The notes below the pieces were generated by a model. That model made no database searches. It was not told the DNA's origin and saw nothing but the letters and a program-made list of their open reading frames with translations. The translations under genes and the position numbers were made by a program. Shown piece after piece: positions 10,980 through 28,717 of a stretch of DNA of 64,000 nucleotides (its first letter is position 1; each line of letters starts with the position of its first letter). The DNA is from Lophium mytilinum. Lineage: Eukaryota. The stretch covers positions 914,816-978,815 of the forward strand of contig MU004191.1 in NCBI GenBank assembly GCA_010093605.1, read 5' to 3'.

Positions 10980-11863
10980 ATGGCGACGCCAACACCAGCG
11001 ACTTCAGCGATGTCAGCGACACCAGCGACACCAGCGACAACAAAAGATGAGTTCGTGATGCCAGTTCTTGTTCCGTGCTCCCACCCAACACCATGGCCTC
11101 CAGAGTAAGTCGAATTCCAGCCTTGAAATGGTTCGTAAATGTTAGCTGATCTAACATCTTTAGCAGCTGTTTCGACGACATAGTCTCCGTTATCGTTGGC
11201 GAAGAGAAGAAGGCCTTTCGCGTCCACAAAGGTGTTCTCACCTACCATTCCGCTTTCTTTGCCGCAGCCTTAGATGGCAAATTCAAAGAAGGCGTGACTC
11301 AGATCGTAGAACTGCCCGAGGACGAAGTTTCCGTCTTTCAAGTAGTGTACTGTTGGCTTTACACTGGACGGCTCTACAACCCACCAGAACACCCACCATC
11401 TTCATCACCTTCAACCGCCGCTGAACACTTCGCGGGTGCAGAGCAGGTTCCGCTTTTCGAGACGCTTATCTGCAAGGTCTTCGTCTTTGCAGACATGAAG
11501 ATCATTCCAGAGCTCAAGAACAAAGCAGTCGACGTACTACATCTAGTTACCTGTACCAACTGGACTTTTCTGAATCACCAAGCCCACTACATCTACAGTA
11601 ACACAATAGATGGTTCCCCCCTAAGAAAAGTCATCACGGACTTTGCAGCGAAGAGTCTCGGTTGCGAGAGCTTCATAAAATTCAGCAGAGGCGGTGCCCT
11701 CTACCCGACTGCCTTCTGCCTTGATGTAATAGCGGCGATACATAGCCAAGGTGGAAAGTGGGATCATATTGGTCGAGAGGGCTGGGCAAAAATTGACCGA
11801 TGCCTTTACCATGATCACTCAGGACCTGGTGGGAAGCTGAGAAGATCACATACGACTGCTTGA
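10980..11863 (+). CDS. BTB/POZ-domain protein, array copy A
   Basis: ATG 10980; phase-2 intron 11105-11163 (tandem TAGCAG acceptor); DIVSVIVGEEKKAFRVHKGVLTYHSAFFAAALDGKFKEG..VELPEDEVSVFQVVYCWLYTG is a fungal BTB signature. Confidence 0.9.
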
Positions 11864-12652
11864 ACGCCAGAGATACTCCTAAAGTCTCCGTGTCTGGCAG
11901 TTTCTTCCTACGATGCTTCAGGGATACTACGCATGACACGAGACTATTGACAATGACGGATGTGGGTTGGTGCAACTCTCTCCTTTCCATAGTCTGGAGG
12001 CTGTCCGAGGGCGATATATACAAGCTTGAAATAAAGAGTGAAGCATATCGGGCGGGGCGTTCTCTGCTTTCATTATCGATGACAAATTAAACTTTGCCAG
12101 GTAAAAGGCATTGATCGATGAATATCAGGGATGTCTAGGTTTGAGTTGTCTATATGCAACTCTATAGAACTAGAGAGAGTCCCTTCCACCTCACTCCTAT
12201 CGGAGAGAGCTGGCCTACATAGTAAGCGTGTTTCTCATCGTGCCGTGATATGTTCCACTCGACGGCTCTCTTGGCCAACCTTTTTCCCGGTAATCCCAGA
12301 TAGCAGCTCCGAGACGATAGCTTGCGACGAAATTCTTAGGTAGTGACTTTATTTCATCTCATTCTCCCAAGGACTGTCTGGTGGAAGCCCTTGGTCTTGA
12401 CGCCTTCGACTGCTAAATAAAATGCTTGCCCCTAATACTTTTAGCTGGAGTTTCAAAAGCTGTCCGTAGCCGCTGCCCTGGACCACCATAAGCGATAGAA
12501 TTCTAAGGTGATTGGCTAAGTATGCGAGCACGTCCCCACCCTGCATGGTGGCTTCTGAACGTCGTTCAGCCTCTCCATTTCCTCTCCGTTTTGTCCTTCC
12601 TTCTATCCGCACTCTCGCCTTGAGTAATGAGACCGAGTCTCTATCCGGCCCG

Positions 12653-13463
12653 ATGGCGACATCTCCCCCAGAGAAACCGGCGTATGTGATGCCCCATTTG
12701 AAAAGCTGCGATCATCCAACCCCGTCAGCACCGATGTTAGTATAGACCCGACCGTCACACTAGCGGTATGATTGGCTGACTCGACCTCAGTTCCACCTGG
12801 GGCAGTGTCATATCTGTCATCGTCGGCGAAGAAAAGAAGGTCTACCAGGTACACAAAGGCCTGCTACTCTACCACTCGTCCTACTTCGTTGGCGCCCTCG
12901 AAGGAGGATTTAAAGAAAGCGAAACCGAAGTTGTGGAGCTCTTTACAGATGAAGTGGTCGTATTCGATGCCGTGTACTGCTGGCTCTACAAAGGGCACTT
13001 ATTCGATTCGCCATCCGCCGGGAAACCTACAGATGTGTCACTCCTATACGACCTGCTCTGCAAGATCTTTGTCTTCGGGGACATGAGAGGCATCCCCGCC
13101 CTTAAGAATGCAGCAATCGACCTACTGCACTCGTCGATTTGTATAAAATGGAAATTCCCCAAGACTCAGGTTCGCTTCATCTACGAGAATACGATGGAAG
13201 GGTCCCTCTTGAGGAAGTTTATTGTGGATATGGCAGTCTTGATTGCTTCTTGTGAGACATTTCTATCGTTTGATAAAGATGGCACCAATTTTACGACTGA
13301 GTTTCTTATGGATGTTATTAAGGCGTTGAATGATCAGGGTGGAAAGTGGCTTGTGATTGGACGGGATGCCTTTGCGGTGATTGACAGGTGCCAGTATCAT
13401 GATCATTCTGGTCCTGGAGGGAAGCTGAGAAATGTAGGGACAAGTGGAGAGGATTCGGGCTGA
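12653..13463 (+). CDS. BTB/POZ-domain protein, array copy B
   Basis: ATG 12653; phase-2 intron 12736-12790; VISVIVGEEKKVYQVHKGLLLYHSSYFVGALEGGFKE...WLYKG. Confidence 0.9.
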
Positions 13464-14028
13464 TTCAATCACTTCTGGGATCTGGGGTGCTTGCATAGGC
13501 TTCTAAATCCTTCAGGTTCTAAGCTTCTCCTCTTCATAGCAGGCAAGGTGACTAATAAATCCTCAGGGATGCATGAAGAAAACTATGTGAAGGGCATACT
13601 CCACTGTGTGTGTTGAGAATCCAAAGGAGGTCATAGAGTGACGTGGTCTATAAAGGTATTTTAACGATGTTCAATATTGCTGAGAGGTACCGCATCTTGC
13701 CAGGCTATTCAACTGCTTGGAGCACCCTGAAATGACTTCAGCTCGAAGTCGAACTGTCGACATATTTTGAACGCTGCATGTGCTGCTTCGAGCTCTTCTT
13801 AGACTCCGAGCTAGACGAAGTCAGTGGATTTGAACATTCGTAAACTGTTCTGGCCACCCCAGAGAGAATTATCTAGTGAGTACAAGCTCATACTGTCGCT
13901 TCACCTCAGTTCAACCACGTGCGCTTACCTAATCCTACTCCACCTGCTCAAACTTAACATCATCGTCTCGCTCATCCTCATCGTCTCACCACGTTCCTTC
14001 ACCGGCTTAGGTGGTCTACACCGCCACC

Positions 14029-14909
14029 ATGGCTACGTCTTCGGTGCCTCCTTCTCCAGCGACGGTGTTCGTGATGCCACCACTGGTGCCATGTCCTCAC
14101 TCTACTGCGCTCCCTCCGATGTATGTACATATTGAGTACCTCAGCCTCATGTCAATAAAGCGCATGAATTGTGCTAATGTTACATCAGAACAGCCTACGA
14201 TGAGCTAGTCTCCGTCATTGTTGGACAACAGAAGAAAGTCTTCCGGATTCACAAGGGAGTGCTCTCTTACCACTCATCTTACTTTGCCGCTGCCTTGGAA
14301 GGACAATTCAAAGAAGGAAACACTGGAGTGGTGGAGCTCGAAGACGACGAAGTGGAAGTGTTTCACGCCTTCTATTGCTGGATATACACGAGACGCCTCC
14401 GGGACCCCCTATCTTCACCGCTGCACAAAGATGCTCTTCCTCAGAACTCGGCGGAAACTACACTATCGGACCTACTGCTCTGTAAAATCTACATCTTCGG
14501 AGACATGCGGGGGATTCCTGGACTTCAAAATAATGCTCTCGACGCACTCCACAAGAACATCTTGCTTTCCTGGAGGACACTTAGTGCGTCCATTGTGAAT
14601 TACGTCTACAGTAATACTGTCGAAAAGTCCCAGCTGCGTTGCTTCATCGTTCAACTTAACATCTCAGGGTATCACGATCTCTGCGAATTCGTCGAAAAAC
14701 GCCTCAAAAAGGATCGCAACAACTACCCAATGGACTTTGTCATCGACATATTACAGATTATTTCCACCAAGGACAAGAGCGGGGCATGGCCGAGAGTGAA
14801 GCACCTGCAAGAGACCTGGGCAAAGCTGGACAGATGTGAATTTCACGATCACTCTGGACCTGGAGGGGCTCTGAGGAAGGCGCCAGGAAACGGGCCGACC
14901 TCTGCATAG
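14029..14909 (+). CDS. BTB/POZ-domain protein, array copy C
   Basis: ATG 14029 in ccgccaccATGg context; phase-2 intron 14121-14188; LVSVIVGQQKKVFRIHKGVLSYHSSYFAAALEGQFKEG...WIYT. Confidence 0.9.
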
Positions 14910-15297
14910 ACAGATCAAGACTCGGAATCAAGACTGCCTTAGCAAAGGAACAGTCAAAATAATCAAAAGATGAAAGGTCTCCAGCCTGGCCTTGAAGTCA
15001 AGCTATCATGTTACCCTTATGCTCGTTTAAGACAATCGTTTAAGACCTTCCTTCATGGTGATGTTGTGAGATGTGACATTCGTGATTCAACTTAGAACCT
15101 TCGACTTTTCACTTCACCCAACAGGGCATTGACAGAGAGATGTAAGTACAGGGCTATGACATCGTGTCCATTCACATCACTTGACTGCTTACCTAATCGT
15201 CGCGTCGCGTTCTTTGCGACTTAACAACCTTCTCGCGCCCAACCTCACTCACAGCCAACAAATTCCTTTGCAAGTTGGAGCGGCCAACGCCAACACC

Positions 15298-16205
15298 ATG
15301 GCCACACCTGTGGTACCTGCTACGCCTCTGGTACCTACCACTCCGGCGTCGCCAGCGACGAAACCAACATTTGTTATGCCAGACCTCAAGCCATGCTCGC
15401 ATCCCATTCAAGGTCCCTGCATGTAAGTACCTCACTTTCGCCAACCGGCGGGCACCTCGTTCAGGAACAGTGCGCTGAACTTTTGCTGACGACTTGAATG
15501 TATAGCGATGCCTTCAACCACGAGATCTTGATCAAGGTCGGCAAGGAGGGCAAGGAAGTCAGAATCTACGAGGGGTTACTCACCTATCATTCCTCCTACT
15601 TCGCCGCCGCACTGAGCGGCTCATTCATTGAAGGCCAAACCAAAGTAATTGAGCTTAAGGAAGATGAGGTGGAAGTTTTCTCCGCGTTTCACTGCTGGAT
15701 CTACACTGGACGCCTGCACCCGTCTCGAGAATCACCACTCAGCAGAGATGCATACAAAGCCCCTACAAGTTCGGAAAGGAATGACCTGTATCTTCTCCTC
15801 GCCAAGATCTTTGTTTTCGGAGACATGAGAGGTATACCAGCGCTGAAGAACGAGGCAATTGATATACTCCACCAACTCTACACATGCACCTGGACGGATT
15901 TTCACTTGTCTGCTGTCAAATACATCTACAAGAACACCACGGCTACGTCTCAGCTACGCCAGTTTGTCGCTCATGCCAATGTCATAGGCCTTCGTGATCT
16001 CAAAAGCTTCCATGAGACAACAAGCACAGCCTGGCCGATCGCGTACGTCTTTGATGTACTACAACTCGTTGCGATGAAGGATAGGAGCGGGGCATGGCCA
16101 AAACTAACTGGCAATCGAATGCACTGGGCGAAACTTGATAGATGTCAGTTCCACGACCATTCTGGACCGGGAGGAGCGCTTAGGAAAACCCCAGCAATCG
16201 GATGA
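15298..16205 (+). CDS. BTB/POZ-domain protein, array copy D
   Basis: ATG 15298; phase-2 intron 15423-15505; ILIKVGKEGKEVRIYEGLLTYHSSYFAAALSGSFIEG...WIYTG. Confidence 0.9.
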
Positions 16206-17158
16206 ACTTCTACTTGAGCGTGTGCAGCAGTCTGTGCACATCCGTCCTCCACAACTCGGAGTTCCCCAACGTGTCTTCAACAATCAGGACAGGACGTAAG
16301 GCTTGATACACATGAATTTGGGCTTGGTTCCGAAGGTTTTTGGACTGCCGATTGCGCGACCGAGGCAACTCTGGATGACTGGACATGAGCTTAGGCCCAC
16401 TATCAAACTATCCTAATACCATTATACTTCTACCAGACCCTTTTTGATCGTGACGTTATGAGGATTGACATCCGTGCGTTGAGGTGCTCTGAGAAGGCGT
16501 TGATAGCTTCAGAGGAAGCTTAAGTGTAGTAGTCCTCGTTTCTTGCGCGCTAAGTTTGTTCTGTCGACACTTAGCTATGGAGTTTGAGTTTAGAGCCTCT
16601 AGCAGGAACGTAGGAGTAAAATGCAGGAGTCTTTGCGTCGTAGCTACTCCAGCACCAAACGAATACTATCTGTAGTTGGACTCACCACTACTCCGATGCT
16701 GCTAAAAGTGCTATCTCTAAGGCGGATTGCAGAGAGCATTGATCGATCGAATGTTTCAATTATAGCCCAAGACTCACCTTACCGTGGTTTGCGTGTGATC
16801 CGGATCTCTATTACTATTGACAAAGTGATAGCGGTGGTGAAGAGCGCAAAGACGATGGAGAGGTACTTACGACTCGCCCATTGTGATCACAATCTAATAA
16901 GAACACAGGCCAGCAGCTTGGTAGCCCTTCATGCTGTGATCGTTGGGATTAGCACGTGACTGAATCTGGGAGCATTTCACTTCTTCAGCTCACGTTAGGA
17001 TTAACTCTCGGCCCGCTCGCTATCAATCTGCCGCTTCAAACATCCGGCTCGGGCTTTCCACGGCAGAGCATCCTATTCACCTCCTTCAACTTCGCATACT
17101 GCTGCTCAAGCCCGACCACCAGCTGCGAAGACCCGGTCTACCGCTGGCGCGCGTCGCG

Positions 17159-18002
17159 ATGGCAGACGACGATTTCAAGATGCCGACTGACCTCAAGGAG
17201 TGTCCGCACAAGACTGAGTTCCCCCCGATGTAAGTCCTATGCAGCCCTTACACCGACGGCGAGTGGAGTTCGCTAACAAAGCCATTCATATAGGACTGCG
17301 TGGGACCACTATGTCTCAGTCAAGGTTGGCAAAGGCGAACAAAAGAAGGAGTTCAATGTCTACAGGGGACTTCTGACTTACTACTCGTCTTACTTTGCGG
17401 CTGCTCTCGACGGAAACTTCAAGGAGGGTGTCACTCAGGTCGTAGAGCTCAAAGAAGATGATCCAAAAGTCTTCGAGGCCTTCCGGAGTTGGATGTATAC
17501 CAGACGTCTATTGGACCAAGTCCCGAGCTTCGATGTGCTCAAATCAGCGGCACACGACCGGTTTCTATGCAATGTTTTCATTTTCGGTGACATGAGAGGC
17601 ATACCAGGCCTCAAGAATGAAGCTATCGATCAGCTTCACAGGTCAACGGCCGAAACCTGGATGGTGCCTTCAAACGACATCAAATACATCTATACGCACA
17701 CACCTGTGCCGTCCTCACTTCGAGACTTTGTTGTTAGTGTGCATGCTCTTACGAAGAATTCTGTTGAAGAGGCGGAATCCGGGAAACATGGTTTCACGGT
17801 AGATTTTTTGTTTGACCTGTTGAAGATGGTAAATACACAGCACGGAATAAAGAACATCGGAAGATTGCCATGGGCAAGATTGGACCGATGCCAATGGCAC
17901 GATCACTCGGGCCCGGGAGGCAAGCTACGGGCGATTTCTGCCAATGGTTCAAACAGCTTGACGGAACGAATACTTACTCCTCTCGCGCAGCTTCCATTGT
18001 AG
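17159..18002 (+). CDS. BTB/POZ-domain protein, array copy E
   Basis: ATG 17159; phase-2 intron 17230-17293; YVSVKVGKGEQKKEFNVYRGLLTYYSSYFAAALDGNFKEG...WMYT. Confidence 0.9.
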
Positions 18003-18712
18003 AGGTCGCGATGCCTTGCCATTAGACATGGCGGTCTGGGGACTGGACAAGGCAGGACAGGCTCTCGACTACGACGCCTACTCTAAAGTCACGGCAACCG
18101 AAAACGAACCAAGATCGTTGACACTTTGGCTGCAAAATGGTACTTGAAGCGAGATAGCGACTCTTTAATCTGCATCCGAGTCCAAAGGTGTCTAGGAGAC
18201 GGGAATATCGGCTGAATCTCTGAATTAGTGGCGCCCACAAACACTATAGGTAGCGTCGACAAACATAGAAAACACAAATGCAACCTAAGCTCACATCGTC
18301 GTCAGCACTGGCTGGTGATCATTACGTGATACAGAGGATGAGTTCAAAGGCCACGAGTCGTCTGACGATATCTGGTTATGTAACCATTTTTCGGCTGCTA
18401 AACCAATCATTGCCTACCGCCATCCCCTATGTTCATCCTCTCCATTTGAGACTTTCTCTTACAAAGGGTGCGGCCGAATGCATATTCCGATTCTAATCGC
18501 TGTAACGGCCGTGCACGGCAGAATCTCCACTAATAGGAACCACCTTTCTTCACCGCCTCCCCCTTATTTTAATCCGTGAGAATATAAATATTTACCTAAA
18601 TTTTAACTACTATAGCTTACTACTATGCTAGAGGCCGCTCTAAGGGGGCTAATAACACCCCTATTACTATAAAGGCTACTATTATTATAATATATCTCTT
18701 CTTTTAGGTTTC

Positions 18713-18916
18713 TGTCACGGGCAGTGAGGTACGGAGGTGTGTCGAGCGAGAAGTAGGATTGTATTACAAGACGTGCTGCAAGGAGCCGGAGTATGAGGCT
18801 GCTCGCGATTCTATCTAGAGACACGCCGGTGGCGGAACAACGATGTTCCTAGCGAGCACGTGACTATCAGGCACGTGCTAGGTTCGTAGCTAGGAAAGAG
18901 GCCTAGATCCGTCACA
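18713..18916. mobile_element. Solo LTR, 204 bp, essentially unRIPped
   Basis: TG...CA ends; imperfect terminal inverted repeat tgtcacgg / ccgtcaca; 5-bp TSD gtttc at 18708-18712 and 18917-18921; GC-balanced inside an AT-rich host. Confidence 0.9.
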
Positions 18917-19029
18917 GTTTCTTTTACCTAAATTAAGGCTAAAACTAGAGTTACTAAGTTAATAGCTATAAAGATCTATAGCTAAGTAAAGAAAAATGCT
19001 AGAAATAAGAATTTCTATAATATACTAGA

Positions 19030-19231
19030 TATAACGGATCTAGCTCTATATATATTATATACTCTTAGCTATATTATATAAGCCTATATACTAGCGCGGT
19101 TTTATACCTCTAGCCTATATTTAGCCTCCACCGCGTAGAACCTCTACCTTTATATAACTTTATCTTTATAAATACACCTTATTTCTAGCTTAATACTATA
19201 CTCTATACCTTACCTTTTATAGTCTATAATA
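19030..19231 (+). repeat. 5' LTR of gypsy element 1
   Basis: Direct repeat of 26699-26900 differing by transitions. Confidence 0.95.
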
Positions 19232-22200
19232 CTATAAAGTTACTCTACCTAGCTACTATTCTACTAAGTCCTTAAACTATAATCTACTACTAGTAAACTA
19301 TAATACTCTATAATTACCCCGCGCGGCTATTATAGCTAATAATTCTAACCCCCTTAATATAACTAGTATATAGAAGCTTTAAGATCTTCTCTTATAGTAT
19401 ACTATTCTTATATTCTTAGACTTCTAGGCCTTAACTTAGGACTTCTAGAATACTAATACCGCTAAGAAATTCTAGATAATTACTAGAAACTTGCAGCGCG
19501 CACGCAGCTATAATAATAATATCTAAGATAACCTTACTAAAGGCCTTACTAAAGGCGACGCTATTCTTAAAGATAATAAGCTTTAGAAACACCCTAATTA
19601 ATCTAATTCTAGTAGCTACGTCTACTACTCTAAAATGCCCGGCGCCTTTAAGACTTCTATTCTTAAAGTAAATAAGCTTATTAATTACTCCGCTATTAAT
19701 AAGTAAGATACTAATAAAGCTTCTATTATATATAAAGTTCTAGATGCTAAAGCCTTTATAGACTTTATTACTAAAAATAAGATAATAGCCTTTAAATTAA
19801 CCCGTTTATATAAAGCTAAAATCTATTAACTATATAACTACCTAGAGCGTAATAAGGCCTCTATAGAGGCTTAGGCTAAGCTTAATAAGTAAGCTTATAA
19901 TATAATTAAGTAATAAGATAATTACCTCTAGGCCGCAAAAGATAATATTAAGTAGCTAGAAAAGACTATTACTAATATAAAATTTAAATACTAGTCTAAC
20001 CTTTCTAACCTCTATAATAACTATAATAATGCTATTTAAAATAAAGATAATACTATCTATACTAGAAACTCTAAGAATAATATTATATATAAATATATAG
20101 CTAATATAGTAGTATTTACTATATAGATAGACACTATTAATACTATAGTAGTAAAGTATATTACTAAGCTTAAGACTTATAGTAAAGCTTTAGCTAAGTA
20201 TATTACTAAGCTAGAAGCCTATATTAAAAATATTAAGAAAGCTCTTACCGCTACTAAAGTCTATATTAATAGCCTCTAGAATACTACTATCTACAGCCCT
20301 ATAGCCCGCGCTAATAACCCTCCCTCTAAAATTACTACGCAACTTACTACTACTATAAGCTAGTAATATAAGCTTATAGCCTATATTATAGCTAAAGAAG
20401 GCGCTAAGCTAGAATATTACTCTTCTCTACCTAGCTAATATTACTTACGCGGCTATAATTACTAGTAATATAAACCCTTACTACTCTACCGCCCTAATAA
20501 GCCCCTCTATAGTTAATAGGACTATATACGCCCCACCGGGGGCAGCGGTAGACCCCTATCTAATTCTAGTAATAGTAATAATAATAATAAGAACTTCTAT
20601 AACTATAATTTAATTTACGCCCTATAATTATATATACTACCTATACCTTTTATAAAACCTAATAGCGCCCTACTACCCCTATATAATATTAACTGCGGAA
20701 TACGCGCTAATTAAAATAAGGATAAAACTATACTATACCCCTCTAAGTATAATAGAGATAAAGCTAAGTATATTACCTAGTATTACTAGGTTCTTAGTAA
20801 GTTTACTTATAGTAGCTATCTCTACTAATATAATAAAGGATTCCGCCTCTACTTTCTAGGTATATATCTTACTAGTATACCTCTTAGTAACTATATAGCG
20901 TAGATAATAGGCTATTAGCCCTTTTATACTCTTAATAATACTATTAAGCGCCTTAATATTAAGAACTTACTATATAACCCTAAAGCTATTATCTTCTAGT
21001 AACTTAACTAACTAATATAGAGTAATAATAACCTTAATATATTCTATATAAAGTACTAAGCGCTTATAGTATAACTACTAAATTAAGAATACTATTAGAA
21101 TATTACCGTGCTTAAGGTAAAGATCTGCCTAGGTATTACTAAGCCTGCAGGTGTTCTAGAAAAACATTATAAGAAGGGATATAAAGTTATTAATATATAT
21201 TATAACTAGCTTTTTAATTAGGCTATAGTAGACTATACCTAGCCACGCTAATAATATAGTAACTAGCCCGGATAGTATAACCCCTAGACTAATATTAATA
21301 GCTATTACGGAGGATACTATAGTAATAAGCCCTAGAACCCTTCTAACTAGACCCCGATAGATTAGTTTTAGGCTACTTAAAACTAGGTTACTTAGAATAG
21401 TTAGAACTAAAGCTACTAGAATAACTATAGCTAAGAATAAACCTAGAATATAATAAACGCGTCTAGCTAGAATTACTAGATATCTATACTATAGACATGT
21501 AAAGTTATAAACTTTCCTATTAATATTTCTACTAACTAGCAGCGCCTAGCCCTAGGCTGTCTTATAGATAACTAAAAGTATTAACTTATAAGTAAGAATT
21601 ACTACTTCTACTACTAACTTATTAGTTATATATCTACTAACTAGTAGTACCTTATAGAGCGCTCTACGCTCGCCCTATATAGTATTAGCATGTATTCTAA
21701 TAATATTATAACCCTAGCCCCGTCTATATACGCTCTATCTATATACGCGCCTCTATTTATATATACTCTATCTATATATATAGCCTCTACTATATTTACT
21801 CTAGCTTCTATTAAAGTAGGTATTAATACTTCTATCTTATCTAGAGGCGCGGGAGGACTATTTATAGAATACGGCTAATCTTAATACTAGAGCTACTTAG
21901 GAAATGCTTAGTTCTAGATTATAGTTATAATCTAGGGCGTATTATTACTAAAGCAGTCTAATACTATAAAAATAAGAAATCTATAAAGTTATAGTTAAAA
22001 AGGTTAGTTATTTTAGCTGCCTCTCTTAGTAATAATATTTAAGTAGGTTAAACTAATAAAAAGACCCTCTATAGCTTTCTAGTTCTAGCTAAAGTCTAGC
22101 GTTTCTATAAAGAATAACTACTAGATATAATTAAAGAATACCTTTATAGTAATACTAGAGTAACTAATAAATTTATAGATACTACTTATGCGCACTAAAT

Positions 22201-25200
22201 AAACTTTTCTATCTACCCCTTACTAAAATTATAAATACTTAAATTAGCTAATAGCTCTACTATTACTAAAAAGATTACTTATAAAGCTCTTATCTCTATT
22301 ACTATTTAAGGCTACTAGAGCTATAAATAGGCTTATATTACTAACCTTAGTAATTATAATATTATTCTAGGCCTCCGCTAGTTCTAATATTATAACCCAG
22401 CTATTAACTAGGTTATAGGCAAGATTAGCTTTATAAAAGATAAATATAATAGAATCTTCTATATATATTAATATTACTATATAGATAATACTAATAGTAC
22501 TATTACTTATACTAAAGGATTAGCTCTACTAGACTTTATATATAACTATAAATATATACTATCTAACTCTATAAACTCCGCGTAGAGAATAAGTATTATA
22601 GCTTACCTTACTATATACCGCATAGCCGCTATTAAAGAAGACTAGCTTAATAACTTACCTTAATACGTTACTACTAACCTTACTAATACTAGTAAGAACT
22701 TCCTACTCTATTCTAACTACCTCTAGGTTATAGCTATATAAATAAGTAATATACCTATCTACCTCTATAAACTAGCTATGCGCGATATTAAGAAGTTTAT
22801 AGAAGTTAAGTAATACTATACTAAGAAAGAGATATTTATAAAGCTTTTCTCTAGCCTATATAAATATATCTATATATTTAACTAAGTTAATACTAATATA
22901 CTCCCTCTATATAGACTAGGTATTAACTATAAGATTAACTAGGTTAATAGTATTAACCTTAGTAAGCTATTTAAAGCCCGTCTATATTCTATATCTACTA
23001 ATAAGCTCTAAGTTATTAAGAAATAGCTTAATAATAATCTAGCTAAGGGCTATATTAGATAATCGCAATTATAAGTCTCTTTACCTATTCTTCTTATACG
23101 CAAGCTAGGGGGCGGTATTTAGTTCTACATTAACTATAGAGCTATTAACGCTCTTACTATTAAAACTTATTATTCTATACCCCTTATATAAGAGACACTT
23201 TACTATCTTAGAAAAGCTAAGTAGTTTACTAAGCTTAATATTATCGCCGCTTTTAATAAAGTCTATATAGCCCTAGGCTATAAATATAAAATAGCTTTTA
23301 TAACCTGCTATAGTAAATACAAGTCCCTTATTATACCCTTTAGTATTATAGAAGGGCTAGAAACCTTCTAGTCCTTTATTAATTAAATACTATATAACTT
23401 CCTTAATATATTCTATATAGCGTACCTTAATAATATTCTTATCTATACTAGAGGCTCTAAAGCTAACTATAAAGCTTACGTTATAGCTATTCTTAAATAA
23501 CTAGAGGTAGTAGGCTTATATATTAACTTATCTAAGTGCGCGTTTAATTAAAAAGAAGTTACTTACTTAGAACTAATAATTTTAACTAACAGAATCCGCA
23601 TAGATCTAGAGAAAGTTACCGCCATTCTAGAATAGAATACTTTAACCTGTATTAAGGACGTCTAAGCCTTTATTAGACTATCTAATTTCTACTAGTAATT
23701 TATCTACGGGTTTTTATATATTATTAAACCTCTTACTAATATAATAAAGCTCTAAGAGAAATAAAAGAAAGCCTACTTCTTATAGATAGAGGCCTATAAA
23801 AAGGCCTTCCGCGCGCTTAAGAAAGTATTTATAGAAGCACCCGTTCTTATGCACTTCTAATATAGTAAGAAGGTCTTTCTTAAAATAGACGCTTCTAACT
23901 ATATAATAGCCGGCGTTATATTCTAAATTAGACCTAATAGCCTTCTATACCTAGTTGCCTTTTTCTCCTTTAAGATATTACTAGCTAAGTGCAATTATAA
24001 GATCTATAATAAGGAACTTCTTATAGTAGTTAAGGCCTTTAAAGAATAGAGACCTAAGCTTATAAGCGCTAACTCTAAAGATCTAACTAACGTTCTTATA
24101 AATTACTATAATCTTAAATAGTTTATAACTACTAAGAAGCTTAATTAATATTAAGTCTATTAGGCTAAATTTCTTACTAGGTTTAACTTTAAGATTATAT
24201 ACCGCCCTAGTATACTAGAGGGTAAACCTAATAGCCTTACGCAGTATTTATAAGACCTACCTTATAGACCTAATAATCTATAGAATTAATTTTAACATTA
24301 AACTATACTTAAATCTTATAACCTTAGACTAGAAGTTATACTAAATAGTAAATTACCCTTACTCTTACTAAATAACGCTAAGTTAAGTAAGCCTAGCTTT
24401 CTTAGGCCGTTCTACGCACTTTACCTATATACTAAGCTACTTAAGCCTCTTCTAATAAACTTACTATAATCCTCTCTTAAAATATATTCTCTTTTTCTCT
24501 TACCTCTTTAACTCGCCCCTGCCAGGCTCCGCAGCTATAACTATGCTAGTAATAATAGTAATAGTAATAGAAGCACTAATAAGAACTTTACAGCGCTACC
24601 TAGTAATACTAATAAGATTTTTACAGCTCTATTAGCTAATAAGGATATTATAGCCGCTAATAAGGTTATTATAGTATAGCTAGATTAAGGTAATAACAGC
24701 GCTAATAGTAATATTAACTATAATAATAATAACCTATAATACCTTATTAATAAAGCCTATATACGCCCGCCCTACTTTAAATCTCTATATAATTCTACCC
24801 TATATAAGCTTATTAATCTTATTTAAAGCAGCGCCTATTCTATTCTAAAGCCCTTTATAACCTTATTAGTAACCTTAATATTAATAGTTTTAAAGTATAA
24901 GATAACTAATTATACTATTATAATTACCTATACGTGCCGGCCTATAATTAGCTCTATACTAAGCTGCTTAGCCTATTTTATAATATATCTATTACTAGCT
25001 ATTCTAGTAAATATAGATTCTATAAGCTACTTTAATATTACTATTTCTAGCCTAACTTCTATAAAGATATTAAGCGCTATACAGGCGCCTATTATAGCTG
25101 CCGCTAAGTAAAAGCCTTTTAAGATAAGTAGTAAGGACTACTCTATAGCCTTAATATACTAGATAAGTAATAGACTAAAATTACTATAGATTTTATTATA

Positions 25201-26698
25201 GACCTTTCTCTCTATATAAGAAATAGATAGATATATATACTTATTCTTATTATAGTTAATAGACTATCTAAAGAACGCTACTATATTTCTATAATAGGGG
25301 ATATAGTTAAGAATATTACTAATACCTTTATCTGCGAAATATTTTAATTACATAGCCTACCTAAGATTATTATTAGTAACCGCGGTGTATAATTTATATC
25401 TATAGTATAGCGCCGCCTATATAAACGCCTTGGCATTAAATCTAAGTTTTCTACTACTTTCTATTCTAAAACTAATAGCTAGACTAAGAACGCTAACTCT
25501 ATTATAAAGGCCTACCTGCGCTAGTTTATCTTATACTAATAGAATAACTAGGTTAATTATCTCCCTCTTAGTAAATTTATAGTTAATAACTATAAATTAG
25601 CCTTAATAGGTTTTACGCCCTTCTTTACTACTTGCGGTTTCCACCTATAGTTAGGTATTAAACTAGCTATACTAGTTACTAGTTACGCTGCTACACATAA
25701 TAAATAACTACTTACTAATTAATACGCTAACTAAATAAAGGATATACTTAAGGAATATTATAACACTATTACCTAGGCTATAGTAGTATAAGCCTACTTT
25801 ACTAATTAATATTACTAACCGCTACTACGTCTTAAGGTAGATAACCTAGTCTAGCTTAACGCGCGTAATATTAAGACCTAACACTCTAATTATTTACTTA
25901 ACTATAAGAATCTTAGTCTATTCTATATTACTAAAGTTATTAATTAGAGTTACACCTTCTAGCTTAACTTTACTAGAATATTACTTAAGAGATATTGCAT
26001 GCATAACGTCTTCTATTCTTATCTACTTTATCTATTTAAGCCCTATTCTATACTAGAATAGAACCTACCTCCGCCTCTACCCGTATAAGTTATTAACCCT
26101 TATAGTATAACTAATAATAAGTAAGATTACATTAATATATAGCTAATTAACTTTATTATAGATAGCTACTAGCTATAACGGGGCCGCTATAGCTATAAAC
26201 TATAATACCGCGCCTAGTATAAAGGTTATACTAAGCTATAGATATAGTAGAACTAGATAAACTTTAGTAAATATAGAGCTAATAAGCTTATTAGTAAATT
26301 CTACTACTATTACCCTAACGCCGACGGCCCTTATCTAGATTTTAGGCCTAACCCTAATTAGTAATAGGTTCTTAATAAGCGCGCACTTATAATCTACAAC
26401 GCGCGTATTTATTAACTCTAATTATATACCTTGCGCAGTAATATTATAATATTATTTATAACCCTAAGACCCGGATTCTCCGCCGCATCTAGCTAGCCGA
26501 GCTATCTTAATAGGAACGCCTACCTTTATAATACTATAAGCACGCCTCTTTCTTATATAGTTCTTATTTAATTACTTATAACTATATTTCCTTAGTATTT
26601 TATTTTATTTTTCTAAGTTAATAGCCTTACTATATAGCCTTTTCTTTATATATAGCCTTTTCTTTCTATAGCCTTTCTTCTTTATTTAGGGGGGGTAG

Positions 26699-26900
26699 TA
26701 TAATAGATCTAGCTCTATATATATTACATGCTCTTAGCTATATTATATAAGCCCGTGCGCTAGCGCAGTTTTATACCTCTAGCCTGTATTTAGCCTCCGC
26801 CGCGTAGAATCTCTACCTCTATACAACTTTATCTTTATAAATACACTCTATTCCTAGCTTAATACTATACTTTATACCTTGCCTCTTATAGTCTATAACA
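26699..26900 (+). repeat. 3' LTR of gypsy element 1
   Basis: Direct repeat of 19030-19231; ends aaca, followed by TSD ctaga. Confidence 0.95.
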
Positions 26901-28717
26901 CTAGAGTCCCTTTTACCTAAATCTAGCCGGCCTAGAAGGGCTTAATATATTAAGAATAGCTTAAATTTCTTAAGAGAAATTAGATAGAATATACTATATT
27001 AGAAGAACTATTCTTTTAAAAAAGTAGCTACTCTAGCACTCTATATAGCTAGCGTTAAAGTAGCTAGATTAATAATTAAAAGAATTATTTATTAGTACTA
27101 TAATTCTCTTTACTAGGTACTAATTATATATAGAATTAGGCCTAGAAAGCCGGCGCTTAATATAGCGTAGAAAGATACTAGATTTAATTACTACACCTAG
27201 CTATAAAATCTTATTAAAAGAACCTAAGAAAAAGTTATTATTATCTATTTAGATAAATTACTAAAGTAATTTAGACCGGGCTAGGCTAGTAAAGGTAAAG
27301 CTAGAGTCTCTAAGCTAATAGAGAGAGATACTAATAAGTATATAATAGCCTAAAAGAGTACTAAGTTCTTTTTTTCTTTTTAGAGTACTATATACTTAGA
27401 TAATTATATTTTAAGGCTATATATTATATAGAAGCTAGAGTCTTAAAAGTAGAAGAATACTCTTAAGAAGAAGCTTATTAAAGATAATAAGAATATAAAG
27501 AAAAGGGCTAAAAGGTACTAAAGAAATACTAAGATTTAGGGGATAATAGAGCATAACTATATAAAAAAGGTAAATAATAAAATTAGAGAAGATAATAAGC
27601 GCCTTAAATAATAAGAAATTTAAAAGGGATAGTAGTATAAGTATAGGTCTAATTAGAAGTATAAGTATAAGATTTTTACCTAAAAAAAAGAAAAGAGGAT
27701 AGATATAGCTTAGTATACTAATAATATTTTAAAGCTATTACTTTATTCTTACTATTTTACTATATAAGAAGTAAACCTAGATAAAGAGGTTTAGCTAATT
27801 AAAAATAATATCTCTCTTTACTATTCTACTTAAAGAAAACTATTATACCTCTTCTTATAGATTAAATTTATAGACTACCTAGCTTTCTCCCCTAATTTAT
27901 ACCTAATTAAGTAAGTTTTTAGAAGAATAAACTATTCTATAAAGCTCTATAACTACTAGAGCGCTAGTAAGTAAGTAAAAGATAAAGCTAGGTAGTTTCT
28001 ACTTAATCTATAGAGGAAGAATAAATAGATAAATAAATATATTATTAGCTAAGTAAAAAATAATACCTTTTTAGACCTTATATATAAGTGTAAATTAGTA
28101 GATAGAAATAATAACTTTATAGAATAATAGCGCACTTTATTTTATAGATTATTAATAGAAATTAAATAAGTTATAGTAATTTAAATTTATATATAGTACT
28201 TTAGTATTCTACCCCCTATACTTATATAACTAGAATATATATTTAGCCGCACCCTTTATATATATAGCTATAGCTAAAGCTTAGACCTCTATACTTTAAT
28301 TAATAATATAAAGGTATATAGCTATTTTATCTTTTATAATATTTCTCTTAATATATTAATAGGGCTAGTACTATATATATAACTATAAATTATTTAGTAG
28401 TATTATAAAACTATCCCTTACCCTAGTATATTAGAGTGTGCCAGTCCCTTATATATTATCGCTCTTAATAGTCTTCTATATTTTTATGTAGATTCGTGGA
28501 TTGTATACACAAGGACTGAGGGAATCGGTGCCATCTTACATCGGGGCAATCTCGGGCGGAGAAAGATGATCTTATCAGATGCCCCGCGCCAAGCCCAAGC
28601 TCCATCGCTGTTGACTGAAATACACCTCCACCGTCACTTCAAGCAAGCAATTACCTACACCTCACCAACCTCACCACATAAACTCTCTCAAACCTCCCAC
28701 ACTCTCCACAGCTCACC

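What the first reader, a model, noticed from the sequence alone, without database searches (positions are those of the whole stretch)
11057..17931. Invariant C-terminal DRCx(Y/F/W)HDHSGPGGxLR plus N-terminal CxH motif: candidate metal-binding clasp
Seen: all five proteins end in DRCLYHDHSGPGGKLR, DRCQYHDHSGPGGKLR, DRCEFHDHSGPGGALR, DRCQFHDHSGPGGALR or DRCQWHDHSGPGGKLR. HDHSGPGG is identical in protein while its codons vary synonymously (cat/cac, tca/tct/tcg, gga/ggt/ggc, cct/ccg), direct evidence of purifying selection rather than gene conversion. All five first exons also keep (F/Y)xMP...CxH (VPCSH, KSCDH, VPCPH, KPCSH, KECPH). Inference: Cys/His from both termini, possibly across the BTB dimer, form a Zn or other metal site or sensor outside the canonical BTB fold.
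Basis: partly seen in the sequence, partly recalled or inferred. Interest (0 to 1): 0.75.

Follow-up and report, generated by a model that had tools for sequence, protein, structure and literature searches.

The report
Conserved Cys-His-His tail in fungal BTB genes
Five neighbouring fungal genes for BTB-type proteins (probable ubiquitin-ligase adaptors) end in a strictly conserved Cys-His-His motif that marks a large, undescribed ascomycete family and most likely holds a zinc ion, but whether an N-terminal cysteine closes the site could not be shown.

Summary
Five tandem two-exon genes on the + strand (10980-18002) each encode BTB plus a BACK-like helical domain. Each ends in DRCx(Y/F/W)HDHSGPGG(K/A)LR and has (F/Y)xMP...CxH in exon 1. 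Synonymous sites are saturated, so selection rather than gene conversion keeps the motif.

The motif is not private to this array. Of 147 relatives whose match reaches it, 146 keep C-x2/3-H-x-H. A sister clade adds a Cys six residues further on (C-x2-H-x-H-x5-C), the pattern of a four-ligand zinc knuckle. The window's clade (named members: Pleosporales, Mytilinidiales) replaced that Cys with SGPGGxLR.

Only two ligand-type residues are specific to proteins without that Cys: the N-terminal Cys and the Asp of HDH. The N-terminal Cys is present in 49 of 56 such proteins with a recorded N-extension. AlphaFold models the N-extension confidently, and leaving it out lowers confidence in the SGPGG loop (88 to 73).

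These links are indirect:
- The clade split is only about two events on the tree.
- The His of CxH is not kept in Pleosporales.
- No coordinates were available, so no distances were measured, and the dimer job gave no verdict.

Verdict: a real, probably zinc-binding family hallmark; the "clasp" is plausible but unproven.

The parts
10980..11863 (+). Gene 1, BTB + helical domain protein, 274 aa. Exon 1 is 10980-11104, the intron 11105-11163, exon 2 is 11164-11863 including the stop.
   Evidence: ORFs and splice sites. Pfam BTB E 6.8e-08. An X1 contig starts exactly at 11164. The start codon is inferred. No matching database protein appeared among the hits.
12653..13463 (+). Gene 2, 251 aa. Exon 1 is 12653-12735, the intron 12736-12790, exon 2 is 12791-13463.
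   Evidence: Equals database protein P0008. The intron is confirmed by a spliced RNA contig with a GT..AG joint 12735>12791. Pfam BTB.
14029..14909 (+). Gene 3, 270 aa. Exon 1 is 14029-14120, the intron 14121-14188, exon 2 is 14189-14909.
   Evidence: Equals P0006. The intron is confirmed by the joint 14120>14189. Pfam BTB E 1.2e-10. AlphaFold model with mean pLDDT 89.1.
15298..16205 (+). Gene 4, 274 aa. Exon 1 is 15298-15422, the intron 15423-15505, exon 2 is 15506-16205.
   Evidence: Equals P0007. The intron is confirmed by the joint 15422>15506. Pfam BTB.
17159..18002 (+). Gene 5, 259 aa as read here. Exon 1 is 17159-17229, the intron 17230-17293, exon 2 is 17294-18002.
   Evidence: ORF and splice sites. 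The database model P0011 shares the N-terminus but ends differently and lacks the motif. The Mytilinidion relative P0203 keeps the motif. No sense-strand splice evidence was seen in X1.
11795..11842 (+). C-terminal motif of g1: DRCLYHDHSGPGGKLR
13383..13430 (+). C-terminal motif of g2: DRCQYHDHSGPGGKLR
14829..14876 (+). C-terminal motif of g3: DRCEFHDHSGPGGALR (C247, H250, D251, H252 of P0006)
16137..16184 (+). C-terminal motif of g4: DRCQFHDHSGPGGALR
17883..17930 (+). C-terminal motif of g5: DRCQWHDHSGPGGKLR
11052..11084 (+). N-extension motif of g1: FVMP...CSH (CxH codons 11076-11084)
12683..12715 (+). N-extension motif of g2: YVMP...CDH (CxH codons 12707-12715)
14068..14100 (+). N-extension motif of g3: FVMP...CPH (C22 and H24 of P0006; CxH codons 14092-14100)
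15370..15402 (+). N-extension motif of g4: FVMP...CSH (CxH codons 15394-15402)
17174..17209 (+). N-extension motif of g5: FKMP...CPH (CxH codons 17201-17209)

Best explanation
The five genes are old tandem paralogs of a large Ascomycota family of small BTB proteins. Each has a BTB domain with the phi-x-E signature followed by a BACK/3-box-like helical domain, so they are probable Cullin-3 adaptors.

[quoted passage not shown] I read it as the core of a structural Zn(II) site that caps and fixes the C-terminal tail.

- In the sister clade, a Cys about six residues after the last His completes the site in cis (C-x2-H-x-H-x5-C).
- In the clade of this window (named members: Pleosporales and Mytilinidiales), that Cys was lost and the loop became SGPGG(K/A)LR.
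- The most likely replacement ligand is the conserved Cys of the N-terminal extension (C22 of gene 3). That extension is a proline-rich strap, and binding would clasp the N-terminus to the C-terminal tail, in the same chain or in the partner of a BTB dimer.

What is shown and what is inferred:
- Shown: the conservation, the fold class and the clade pattern.
- Inferred: metal binding (my odds about 0.65) and the participation of the N-terminal Cys (about 0.35-0.4). The confidence given for this field (0.45) is for the statement as a whole.
For: Family and fold:
- Pfam BTB is above its cut-off in all five genes.
- The AlphaFold model of gene 3 has pLDDT 89.1 and pTM 0.87.
- The model matches NPR1, SPOP, KLHL3/11, KBTBD2/4 and A55 BTB-BACK structures (Foldseek E down to 4e-5; VIA Z 10-12 over model residues 25-233).
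- At the phi-x-E position, F or W occurs in 102 of 121 and E in 82 of 121 aligned family members.

Family size: 332 cluster representatives at E<=1e-30 and 5331 at E<=1e-10.

Motif:
- Of 147 relatives whose match reaches it, 132 have C-x2-H-x-H, 14 have C-x3-H-x-H and 1 has neither.
- About 48 of 121 have a further Cys 5-7 residues after the last His.

Candidate fourth ligand:
- C, H, D or E residues kept in at least 80% of proteins without that Cys are C22, D136, D149, C247, H250, D251 and H252. Only C22 and D251 are specific to that class.
- Among 76 proteins with an N-extension of at least 20 residues, the N-terminal Cys is present in 49 of 56 without the downstream Cys and in 7 of 20 with it.
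- Five of six metagenome loci of the SGPGG clade with upstream DNA carry an upstream exon '..LSxCxGPxxxAP' that ORF-style gene calls had missed.

Modelling:
- The N-extension coil (residues 11-30) has pLDDT 86-92.
- Folding exon 2 alone drops the HSGPGGALRK block from 88 to 73. The C-x2-H block stays at 94-96, and most other blocks change by 3 or less.

Precedent: the Kv channel T1 domain, a BTB fold, has a C-terminal Zn site with three ligands from one chain and one Cys from the neighbour (passages of bioRxiv 10.1101/2021.11.09.467962).
Against: - No metal was measured or modelled. No coordinates were available, so the distance between C22/H24 and C247/H250/H252 is unknown.
- The presence or absence of the downstream Cys changes only twice on the family tree. 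Only 2 independent pairs exist, so the co-distribution statistics are not independent events.
- The His of CxH is absent in Pleosporales.
- Some proteins with the downstream Cys also carry an N-terminal Cys (7 of 20; L010 and L011). The N-terminal Cys therefore cannot be a simple substitute.
- Asp251 (86% against 2%) tracks loss of the downstream Cys at least as well as C22 does.
- In an intermediate group without the downstream Cys, 14 of 24 recorded N-termini lack the Cys. Most of these are ORF-style calls from unspliced contigs, so this could not be resolved.
- The pLDDT comparison uses blocks of ten residues offset by one, with one run each.
- Alignments A3 and A4 were selected on C..H.H, so invariance within them is circular. 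One search is the fairer count, although its profile also contains the motif.
Confidence: 0.45

Rival explanations
1. The site has three protein ligands (Cys247, His250, His252), and Asp251 or water takes the fourth position. This would be a more open or labile metal site than in the sister clade. The N-terminal strap with its Cys would do something else, such as docking on the helical domain or redox sensing.
For: - Asp at the HxH middle position is found in 86% of proteins without the downstream Cys and 2% of those with it (60/2/10/47).
- The Asp is also present in intermediate-group proteins whose recorded N-termini lack a Cys.
- The N-terminal Cys co-occurs with the downstream Cys in some relatives.
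Against: - In H-x-H motifs where both His bind one ion, the middle side chain usually points away (general structural knowledge, not tested here).
- In the sister clade this position is mostly Val or Ile, which suggests a buried position facing away from the metal.
- Arg/Lys246 pairs with Asp/Glu251 in 54 sequences, against 24 mixed cases. This fits a salt bridge rather than metal ligation.
- The short N-termini are mostly unreliable ORF calls.
Confidence: 0.2
2. No metal is involved. The C-terminal motif and the N-terminal strap are a conserved docking surface or degron-like peptide for a partner (substrate, Cullin-3/Rbx1 or a regulator). Cys and His would be kept for packing or hydrogen bonding.
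For: - The whole 16-residue block, including Gly/Pro/Arg positions, is conserved in the clade.
- In Pleosporales the protein ends shortly after it with (L/M)ESRK.
- Nothing solved covers this part of the model.
Against: - Across the whole family only C, H and H persist while every other motif position varies.
- The sister clade conserves a fourth Cys at fixed spacing. That pattern is typical of metal ligands, not of a linear docking motif.
Confidence: 0.12
3. The site is a redox, heme or metal sensor. The N-terminal Cys-Pro(-His) resembles a heme-regulatory CP motif (recalled from BACH1 and IRP2 literature, not from a call). Together with the C-terminal Cys/His it would bind a ligand reversibly and switch adaptor activity, in the way KEAP1 senses through Cys and zinc.
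For: - CPH is found in g3 and g5 and in several distant relatives with 'PKCPH'.
- BTB adaptors with sensor cysteines exist. KEAP1 papers were seen only as titles in the reference list of PMC10070164.
Against: - The Pro and His after the Cys are not conserved: CSH and CDH in g1, g2 and g4, and C(K/S/N)x in Pleosporales.
Confidence: 0.05

Closest known systems
SPOP / KLHL / KBTBD-type BTB-BACK Cullin-3 substrate adaptors
   Same: - A BTB fold followed by 3-box/BACK-like helices.
- The phi-x-E position (FKE or FIE) is kept in all five genes.
   Different: - There is no MATH, Kelch or other substrate-binding domain; the proteins are only 251-274 aa.
- They add a C-terminal C-x2-H-x-H tail and a proline-rich N-terminal strap that no solved adaptor covers (model residues 234-260 fall outside the alignments).
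- Cul3 binding was not tested.
Kv2/Kv3/Kv4 channel T1 domain (BTB fold) with the HX5CX20CC inter-subunit Zn site
   Same: [quoted passage not shown] Three ligands come from one chain and the fourth from elsewhere, here the neighbouring subunit (passages of bioRxiv 10.1101/2021.11.09.467962). This shows that a '3+1' site is realistic.
   Different: - The motif HX5CX20CC is absent from the five proteins.
- T1 domains are tetramers or pentamers without a BACK-like domain.
- There is no sequence relationship beyond the fold.
NPR1 (plant) BTB with an internal zinc finger
   Same: NPR1 is the top Foldseek match (7mk3, E 4.1e-5). It has a BTB plus a helical bundle with an accessory Zn site. The Zn finger is recalled from the 2022 structure paper, which was not held.
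   Different: - As recalled, the NPR1 site (C-x4-C-x-H-x2-C) lies between the BTB core and the helical bundle.
- That pattern is absent here.
- The equivalent region of gene 3 is a low-confidence loop (pLDDT 60-76).
KEAP1 (BTB-IVR-Kelch sensor adaptor)
   Same: A BTB adaptor whose Cys residues, and reportedly zinc, act as a sensor. This was seen only as titles in a reference list. KEAP1 BTB structures align with the model at Z about 10.
   Different: There is no Kelch domain here. The Cys/His positions are unrelated, and a sensor role is pure speculation for these genes.

Membership tests
BTB/POZ domain (Pfam PF00651) | Match to the Pfam profile above the gathering score | tested here: met
   All five exon-2 products score 25.9-42 bits against a cut-off of 20.5, with E from 1.2e-05 to 1.2e-10.
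BTB/POZ domain (Pfam PF00651) | BTB fold | tested here: met
   The AlphaFold model has pLDDT 89.1. VIA gives Z 10-12 to the BTB domains of KLHL26, KBTBD2, SPOP, KEAP1 and BCL6.
Cullin-3 substrate adaptor (SPOP/KLHL type) | phi-x-E motif in the BTB (feature as recalled from the Cul3-BTB structural literature) | tested here: met
   The five genes have FKE, FKE, FKE, FIE and FKE. In the profile alignment the motif aligns to M-E-E of SPOP. It is not kept in many Pleosporales relatives.
Cullin-3 substrate adaptor (SPOP/KLHL type) | 3-box/BACK helices after the BTB | tested here: met
   The model aligns with KBTBD2, SPOP and A55 BTB-BACK through about residue 230. This rests on a predicted model only.
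Cullin-3 substrate adaptor (SPOP/KLHL type) | A separate substrate-recognition domain (MATH, Kelch and the like) | tested here: not met
   Pfam finds only BTB. The proteins are 251-274 aa long.
Cullin-3 substrate adaptor (SPOP/KLHL type) | Physical binding to Cullin-3 | not testable with these tools
   This needs a pull-down or co-expression experiment.
Compact Cys/His zinc knuckle (four ligands in one short stretch) | Four Cys/His at fixed short spacing | tested here: not met
   The five genes have only C-x2-H-x-H. The position of the sister clade's fourth Cys is Lys or Ala. The sister clade itself meets the pattern C-x2-H-x-H-x5-C.
Compact Cys/His zinc knuckle (four ligands in one short stretch) | Bound Zn | not testable with these tools
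   This needs ICP-MS, a PAR assay or a structure.
Kv T1-type inter-subunit Zn site | HX5CX20CC motif | tested here: not met
   A regular-expression search found it in none of the six proteins checked.
NPR1-type BTB zinc finger | C-x4-C-x-H-x2-C between the BTB core and the helical bundle (pattern recalled, not from a call) | tested here: not met
   The pattern is absent from all six proteins checked.

The most novel reading that the evidence does not exclude
The N-terminal Cys(-x-His) strap and the C-terminal Cys-His-His tail form a reversible inter-terminal or inter-subunit metal/redox clasp. Closing it would switch a whole Dothideomycete family of minimal Cullin-3 adaptors between open and closed states. 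This would be a KEAP1-like sensor principle, but built from the two chain ends of a BTB-BACK protein.
Probability: 0.1. Interest if true: 0.75.

Novelty: new variant of a known kind. Interest (0 to 1): 0.42.

Why it matters
Ascomycete genomes hold hundreds of clusters of these small BTB proteins (332 cluster representatives at E<=1e-30), and none has a described function. Pfam has no model for their C-terminal hallmark. Three literature searches found no description of it.

If the C-x2-H-x-H tail is a Zn site, it defines a new accessory module of BTB-BACK adaptors. It also gives a simple handle (Cys/His mutants) for studying the family.

If the N-terminal Cys really closes the site, these proteins would be an example of a metal-mediated N-to-C clasp, possibly regulatory, in a ubiquitin-ligase adaptor.

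If neither holds, the result is only a well-conserved family signature.

Tried and rejected
- **Homodimer with zinc.** Complex prediction on gene 3 x2 plus 2 Zn scored 0.03 and 0.06 against a mark of 0.32. That is no verdict. My alignment was not used and no contacts were given. It counts neither for nor against dimerisation or a trans site.
- **Distances in the model.** Model coordinates are not placed in the script box, so no Cys/His distances could be measured.
- **Whole-genome search for further paralogs.** No genome is held for this window.
- **Co-distribution statistics.** The Fisher tests on alignment A3 looked strong (OR 9.3 and OR 141). The tree test showed only 2 changes of the downstream-Cys trait and 2 independent pairs, so I do not use those p-values as evidence of coupling.
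- **Invariance of C, H and H in A3 and A4.** This is circular, because those rows were chosen for C..H.H. It is replaced by the count.
- **'Short' N-termini as evidence that the N-terminal Cys is dispensable.** Rejected for now. The ten proteins looked up come from Logan or ENA contig gene calls (one cluster also holds a partial NCBI record). In five metagenome loci the missing exon lies upstream.
- **Solved-structure sequence search.** The family profile matched only the BTB part. Pfam at E<=1 gave nothing for the tail.
- **RNA evidence.** Only one run was listed, and it is not on record as RNA. Its contigs are spliced. No sense-strand joint was seen for g5; contigs show presence, not absence.
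- **Other patterns considered from memory and dropped.** Walker A, cupin, DHHC and HExxH do not fit the spacing. No tool test was made.
- **First related-loci run.** The query A3 failed for lack of a conserved stretch. I repeated the scan with A2.
- **NPR1 structure paper.** The paper is not held, so its zinc finger is quoted from memory.
- **Earlier-findings look-ups.** The look-ups by place and by sequence returned nothing.

Full report
**1. What is there**

The window is fungal. Gene 3 equals, residue for residue, a database protein that its source names as from Lophium mytilinum (Dothideomycetes). GC-normal gene islands alternate with blocks of 27-30% GC.

Between 10980 and 18002 lie five genes on the + strand. 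Each has a short first exon, one phase-2 GT..AG intron of 55-83 nt and a long second exon. The predicted products are 274, 251, 270, 274 and 259 aa. Three equal database proteins (P0008, P0006, P0007).

Spliced contigs of one public run confirm the introns of genes 2, 3 and 4 at exactly the predicted bases. tblastn finds no sixth copy or relic in the window. The neighbours are unrelated: LisH, WD40, PCI, DRMBL and FAD-oxidase ORFs.

**2.

All five proteins end in DRCx(Y/F/W)HDHSGPGG(K/A)LR followed by 6-23 variable residues.

- The paralogs are 42-53% identical.
- dS is saturated in 9 of 10 pairs and dN is 0.39-0.58.
- Within the motif, 6-12 of 16 codons differ synonymously per pair and only 1-3 non-synonymously.
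- The motif is the most conserved 16-column stretch: 13 invariant columns, against a mean of 3.6 and a next best of 9.

So long-standing purifying selection, not gene conversion, keeps it. Exon 1 keeps (F/Y)xMP and, 4 residues later, CxH in all five genes.

**3. What the proteins are**

Pfam sees only a BTB domain at the start of exon 2 and nothing on the C-terminal half.

AlphaFold2 with a 121-row alignment gives a confident model of gene 3 (mean pLDDT 89.1, pTM 0.87). It shows a BTB followed by six more helices.

- The best structural matches are BTB plus BACK/3-box proteins: NPR1, SPOP, KLHL3/11, KBTBD2/4 and vaccinia A55 (Foldseek E down to 4e-5; VIA Z 10-12).
- The alignments cover model residues about 25-233.
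- The last short helix (246-249) and the motif (247-260) have no counterpart.

The phi-x-E position known from Cullin-3-binding BTB domains (feature recalled) is FKE or FIE in all five. It aligns with M-E-E of SPOP and is F/W in 102 and E in 82 of 121 aligned relatives. These are therefore probable, untested, minimal Cullin-3 adaptors without a separate substrate-binding domain.

**4. The motif is a family hallmark**

A profile search of 1.84 billion cluster representatives gives 332 hits at E<=1e-30 and 5331 at E<=1e-10. The Atlas look-up shows Ascomycota BTB clusters.

I collected 169 relatives. In 147 of them the match to the unselected 26-row profile reaches the motif positions. Of these 147:
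- 132 have C-x2-H-x-H;
- 14 have C-x3-H-x-H;
- 1 has neither (H to Y).

The other 22 do not reach the motif (fragments or other C-termini). Alignments A3 and A4 were chosen for C..H.H, so their 'invariant' columns are circular and are not used as evidence.

Three groups appear on a FastTree of 119 rows built without the trait columns.

- (a) The SGPGG clade: 45 rows, containing the window's genes. Every named member is from Pleosporales or Mytilinidiales. The exact string HDHSGPGG occurs in 72 of 226 collected proteins.
- (b) An intermediate group: 26 rows with C-x-Y-H-D-H and a variable tail.
- (c) A sister clade: 48 rows with C-x-[YF]-H-[VIEQ..]-H-x5-C, for example '..MCQYHVHEEGVKC'.

Group (c) has four Cys/His at fixed short spacing, the usual signature of a small Zn site. 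In (a) the position of that fourth Cys is Lys or Ala.

**5. Is the N-terminus part of it?**

Evidence for:

- A scan of all columns for C, H, D or E kept in at least 80% of proteins without the downstream Cys gives C22, D136, D149, C247, H250, D251 and H252. Only C22 and D251 are specific to that class.
- The N-extension has a conserved architecture, [FYW]-x-[MIVA]-P ... L-S-x-C-x-x-P-x3-[AP]-P, ending 15-17 residues before the first BTB strand. It is seen in the SGPGG clade and as '(I)PKCPH...SPxxYG' in more distant relatives.
- Among 76 proteins that start with Met and have at least 20 residues before the BTB, the Cys is present in 49 of 56 without the downstream Cys and in 7 of 20 with it (odds ratio 13). 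At least two of the 7 exceptions (P0035 and P0191) are intron read-through ORFs.
- ORF-style gene calls hide the exon. In five of six SGPGG-clade metagenome loci with upstream DNA, an exon '..DLSxC(K/N/D)GPxxxAP' followed by an intron lies upstream (L001-L004 and L008; L006 is doubtful).
- AlphaFold places the coil 11-30 with pLDDT 86-92.
- When exon 2 alone is folded with the same relatives, the block holding HSGPGGALRK falls from 88 to 73 and 231-240 from 81 to 74. The block holding C-x2-H stays at 94-96. Other blocks change by about 3 or less, except the new N-terminus and a disordered loop.

Evidence against or limiting:

- The downstream-Cys trait changes only twice on the tree and gives 2 independent pairs. 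The counts above are clade contrasts, not repeated events.
- The His of CxH is not kept in Pleosporales, which have C-(K/S/N)-x-P and a second Cys in 'STCY'.
- Some relatives have both an N-terminal Cys and the downstream Cys.
- In the intermediate group, 14 of 24 recorded N-termini lack the Cys. The ten looked up are Logan or ENA contig calls, so this is unresolved.
- Asp251 tracks the loss of the downstream Cys as well as C22 does. It may instead pair with Arg246: 54 basic/acidic pairs, 43 with neither, 24 mixed.
- No coordinates were available, so no distance was measured.

**6. How it most likely works**

*Shown:* an old, selected C-H-H core at the end of a BTB-BACK-like protein; a four-ligand version in the sister clade; and a conserved, confidently modelled N-terminal strap with a Cys in the clade that lacks the fourth ligand.

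*Inferred:*
- C247, H250 and H252 bind Zn(II) and fix the C-terminal tail on the helical domain (my odds about 0.65).
- In this clade the fourth ligand is C22 of the strap, in cis or from the partner of a BTB dimer (about 0.35-0.4).
- Otherwise the fourth ligand is Asp251 or water (about 0.2).
- A non-metal docking role (about 0.12) and a heme or redox sensor (about 0.05) remain possible.

A '3+1' Zn site at the C-terminal end of a BTB-fold domain has a precedent in Kv channel T1 domains (HX5CX20CC; passages read in bioRxiv 10.1101/2021.11.09.467962). That motif is absent here.

**7. Comparison and novelty**

The proteins are members of the BTB superfamily and resemble SPOP/KLHL-type Cul3 adaptors in fold. 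They lack a substrate domain, and Cul3 binding is untested.

The tail is not a Pfam family. I found no description of it in three full-text searches, which cover open-access papers and bioRxiv only. That fits group (c), but I did not check that genome.

I rate this a new variant of a known kind: a BTB-fold protein with an accessory Cys/His site. It is of moderate interest. The motif is real and family-wide. The 'clasp' is an attractive but unproven detail.

**8. Side observations**

Over gene 5 the public contigs show four joints whose ends are GT..AG on the minus strand (16560>16686, 16933>16994, 17308>17382, 17814>17976). This is a spliced antisense transcript whose longest ORF is 68 aa in 1239 nt. 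Its last intron spans the motif codons of gene 5.

The database model of gene 5 (P0011) lacks the motif, whereas the open frame and the Mytilinidion relative P0203 keep it.

Noticed in passing
window 16443-18100, minus strand: Contigs of run X1 show four joints with canonical GT..AG ends on the minus strand (16560>16686, 16933>16994, 17308>17382, 17814>17976), at depth about 24 against 4-9 over genes 1-4. This is a spliced antisense transcript across gene 5. Its longest ORF is 68 aa in 1239 nt, so it is probably non-coding. Its last intron spans the motif codons of gene 5.
   Followed up: partly
window 17159-18002 (gene 5): The database protein for this gene (P0011, 208 aa) shares the N-terminus but ends in '...DLLKMDSASTF' without the motif. 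The open frame in the window runs on through DRCQWHDHSGPGGKLR, and the Mytilinidion relative P0203 keeps a slightly degenerate motif. The deposited model is probably wrong at its 3' end, perhaps misled by the antisense splice.
   Followed up: partly
window 10980-11863 (gene 1): Gene 1 has an intact two-exon frame of 274 aa. No identical database protein appeared among the hits, which did list genes 2-5. It may be unannotated or modelled differently. No exact look-up was made.
   Followed up: no
window 18001-28000 and 42001-64000: Long blocks of 27-37% GC lie between gene islands of 48-60% GC, like the AT-rich, RIP-type isochores of some Dothideomycetes. The BTB array sits directly at the edge of one. 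No BTB relic was detected in them by tblastn.
   Followed up: partly
relatives P0058, P0080, P0107, P0174, P0150 (sister clade): Many sister-clade proteins share a different, Cys-free N-terminal peptide, 'MAPPSTP(D/G/E)K.P....(M/L)F(D/G)'. This may be a Ser/Thr-Pro phosphorylation or docking motif.
   Followed up: no
relatives P0041, P0200; P0175: Decaying or rearranged copies exist. P0041 has H to Y and P0200 has H to N in the C-H-H core, and P0200 also lacks the N-extension. P0175 (Curvularia) is a fusion of a partial and a full copy.
   Followed up: no
loci L001-L004, L008 (metagenome contigs): Protein predictions made on unspliced contigs (Logan, ENA, JGI metagenomes) systematically miss the short first exon of this family, or read through its intron. 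As a result, N-terminal features of fungal proteins in these collections are unreliable.
   Followed up: yes
alignment A3, P0006 positions 246 and 251: The residue before the Cys and the residue between the two His covary: Arg with Asp in the clades without the downstream Cys, and Met/Leu with Val/Ile in the sister clade (54 basic/acidic pairs, 43 with neither, 24 mixed). This suggests the two side chains touch.
   Followed up: partly
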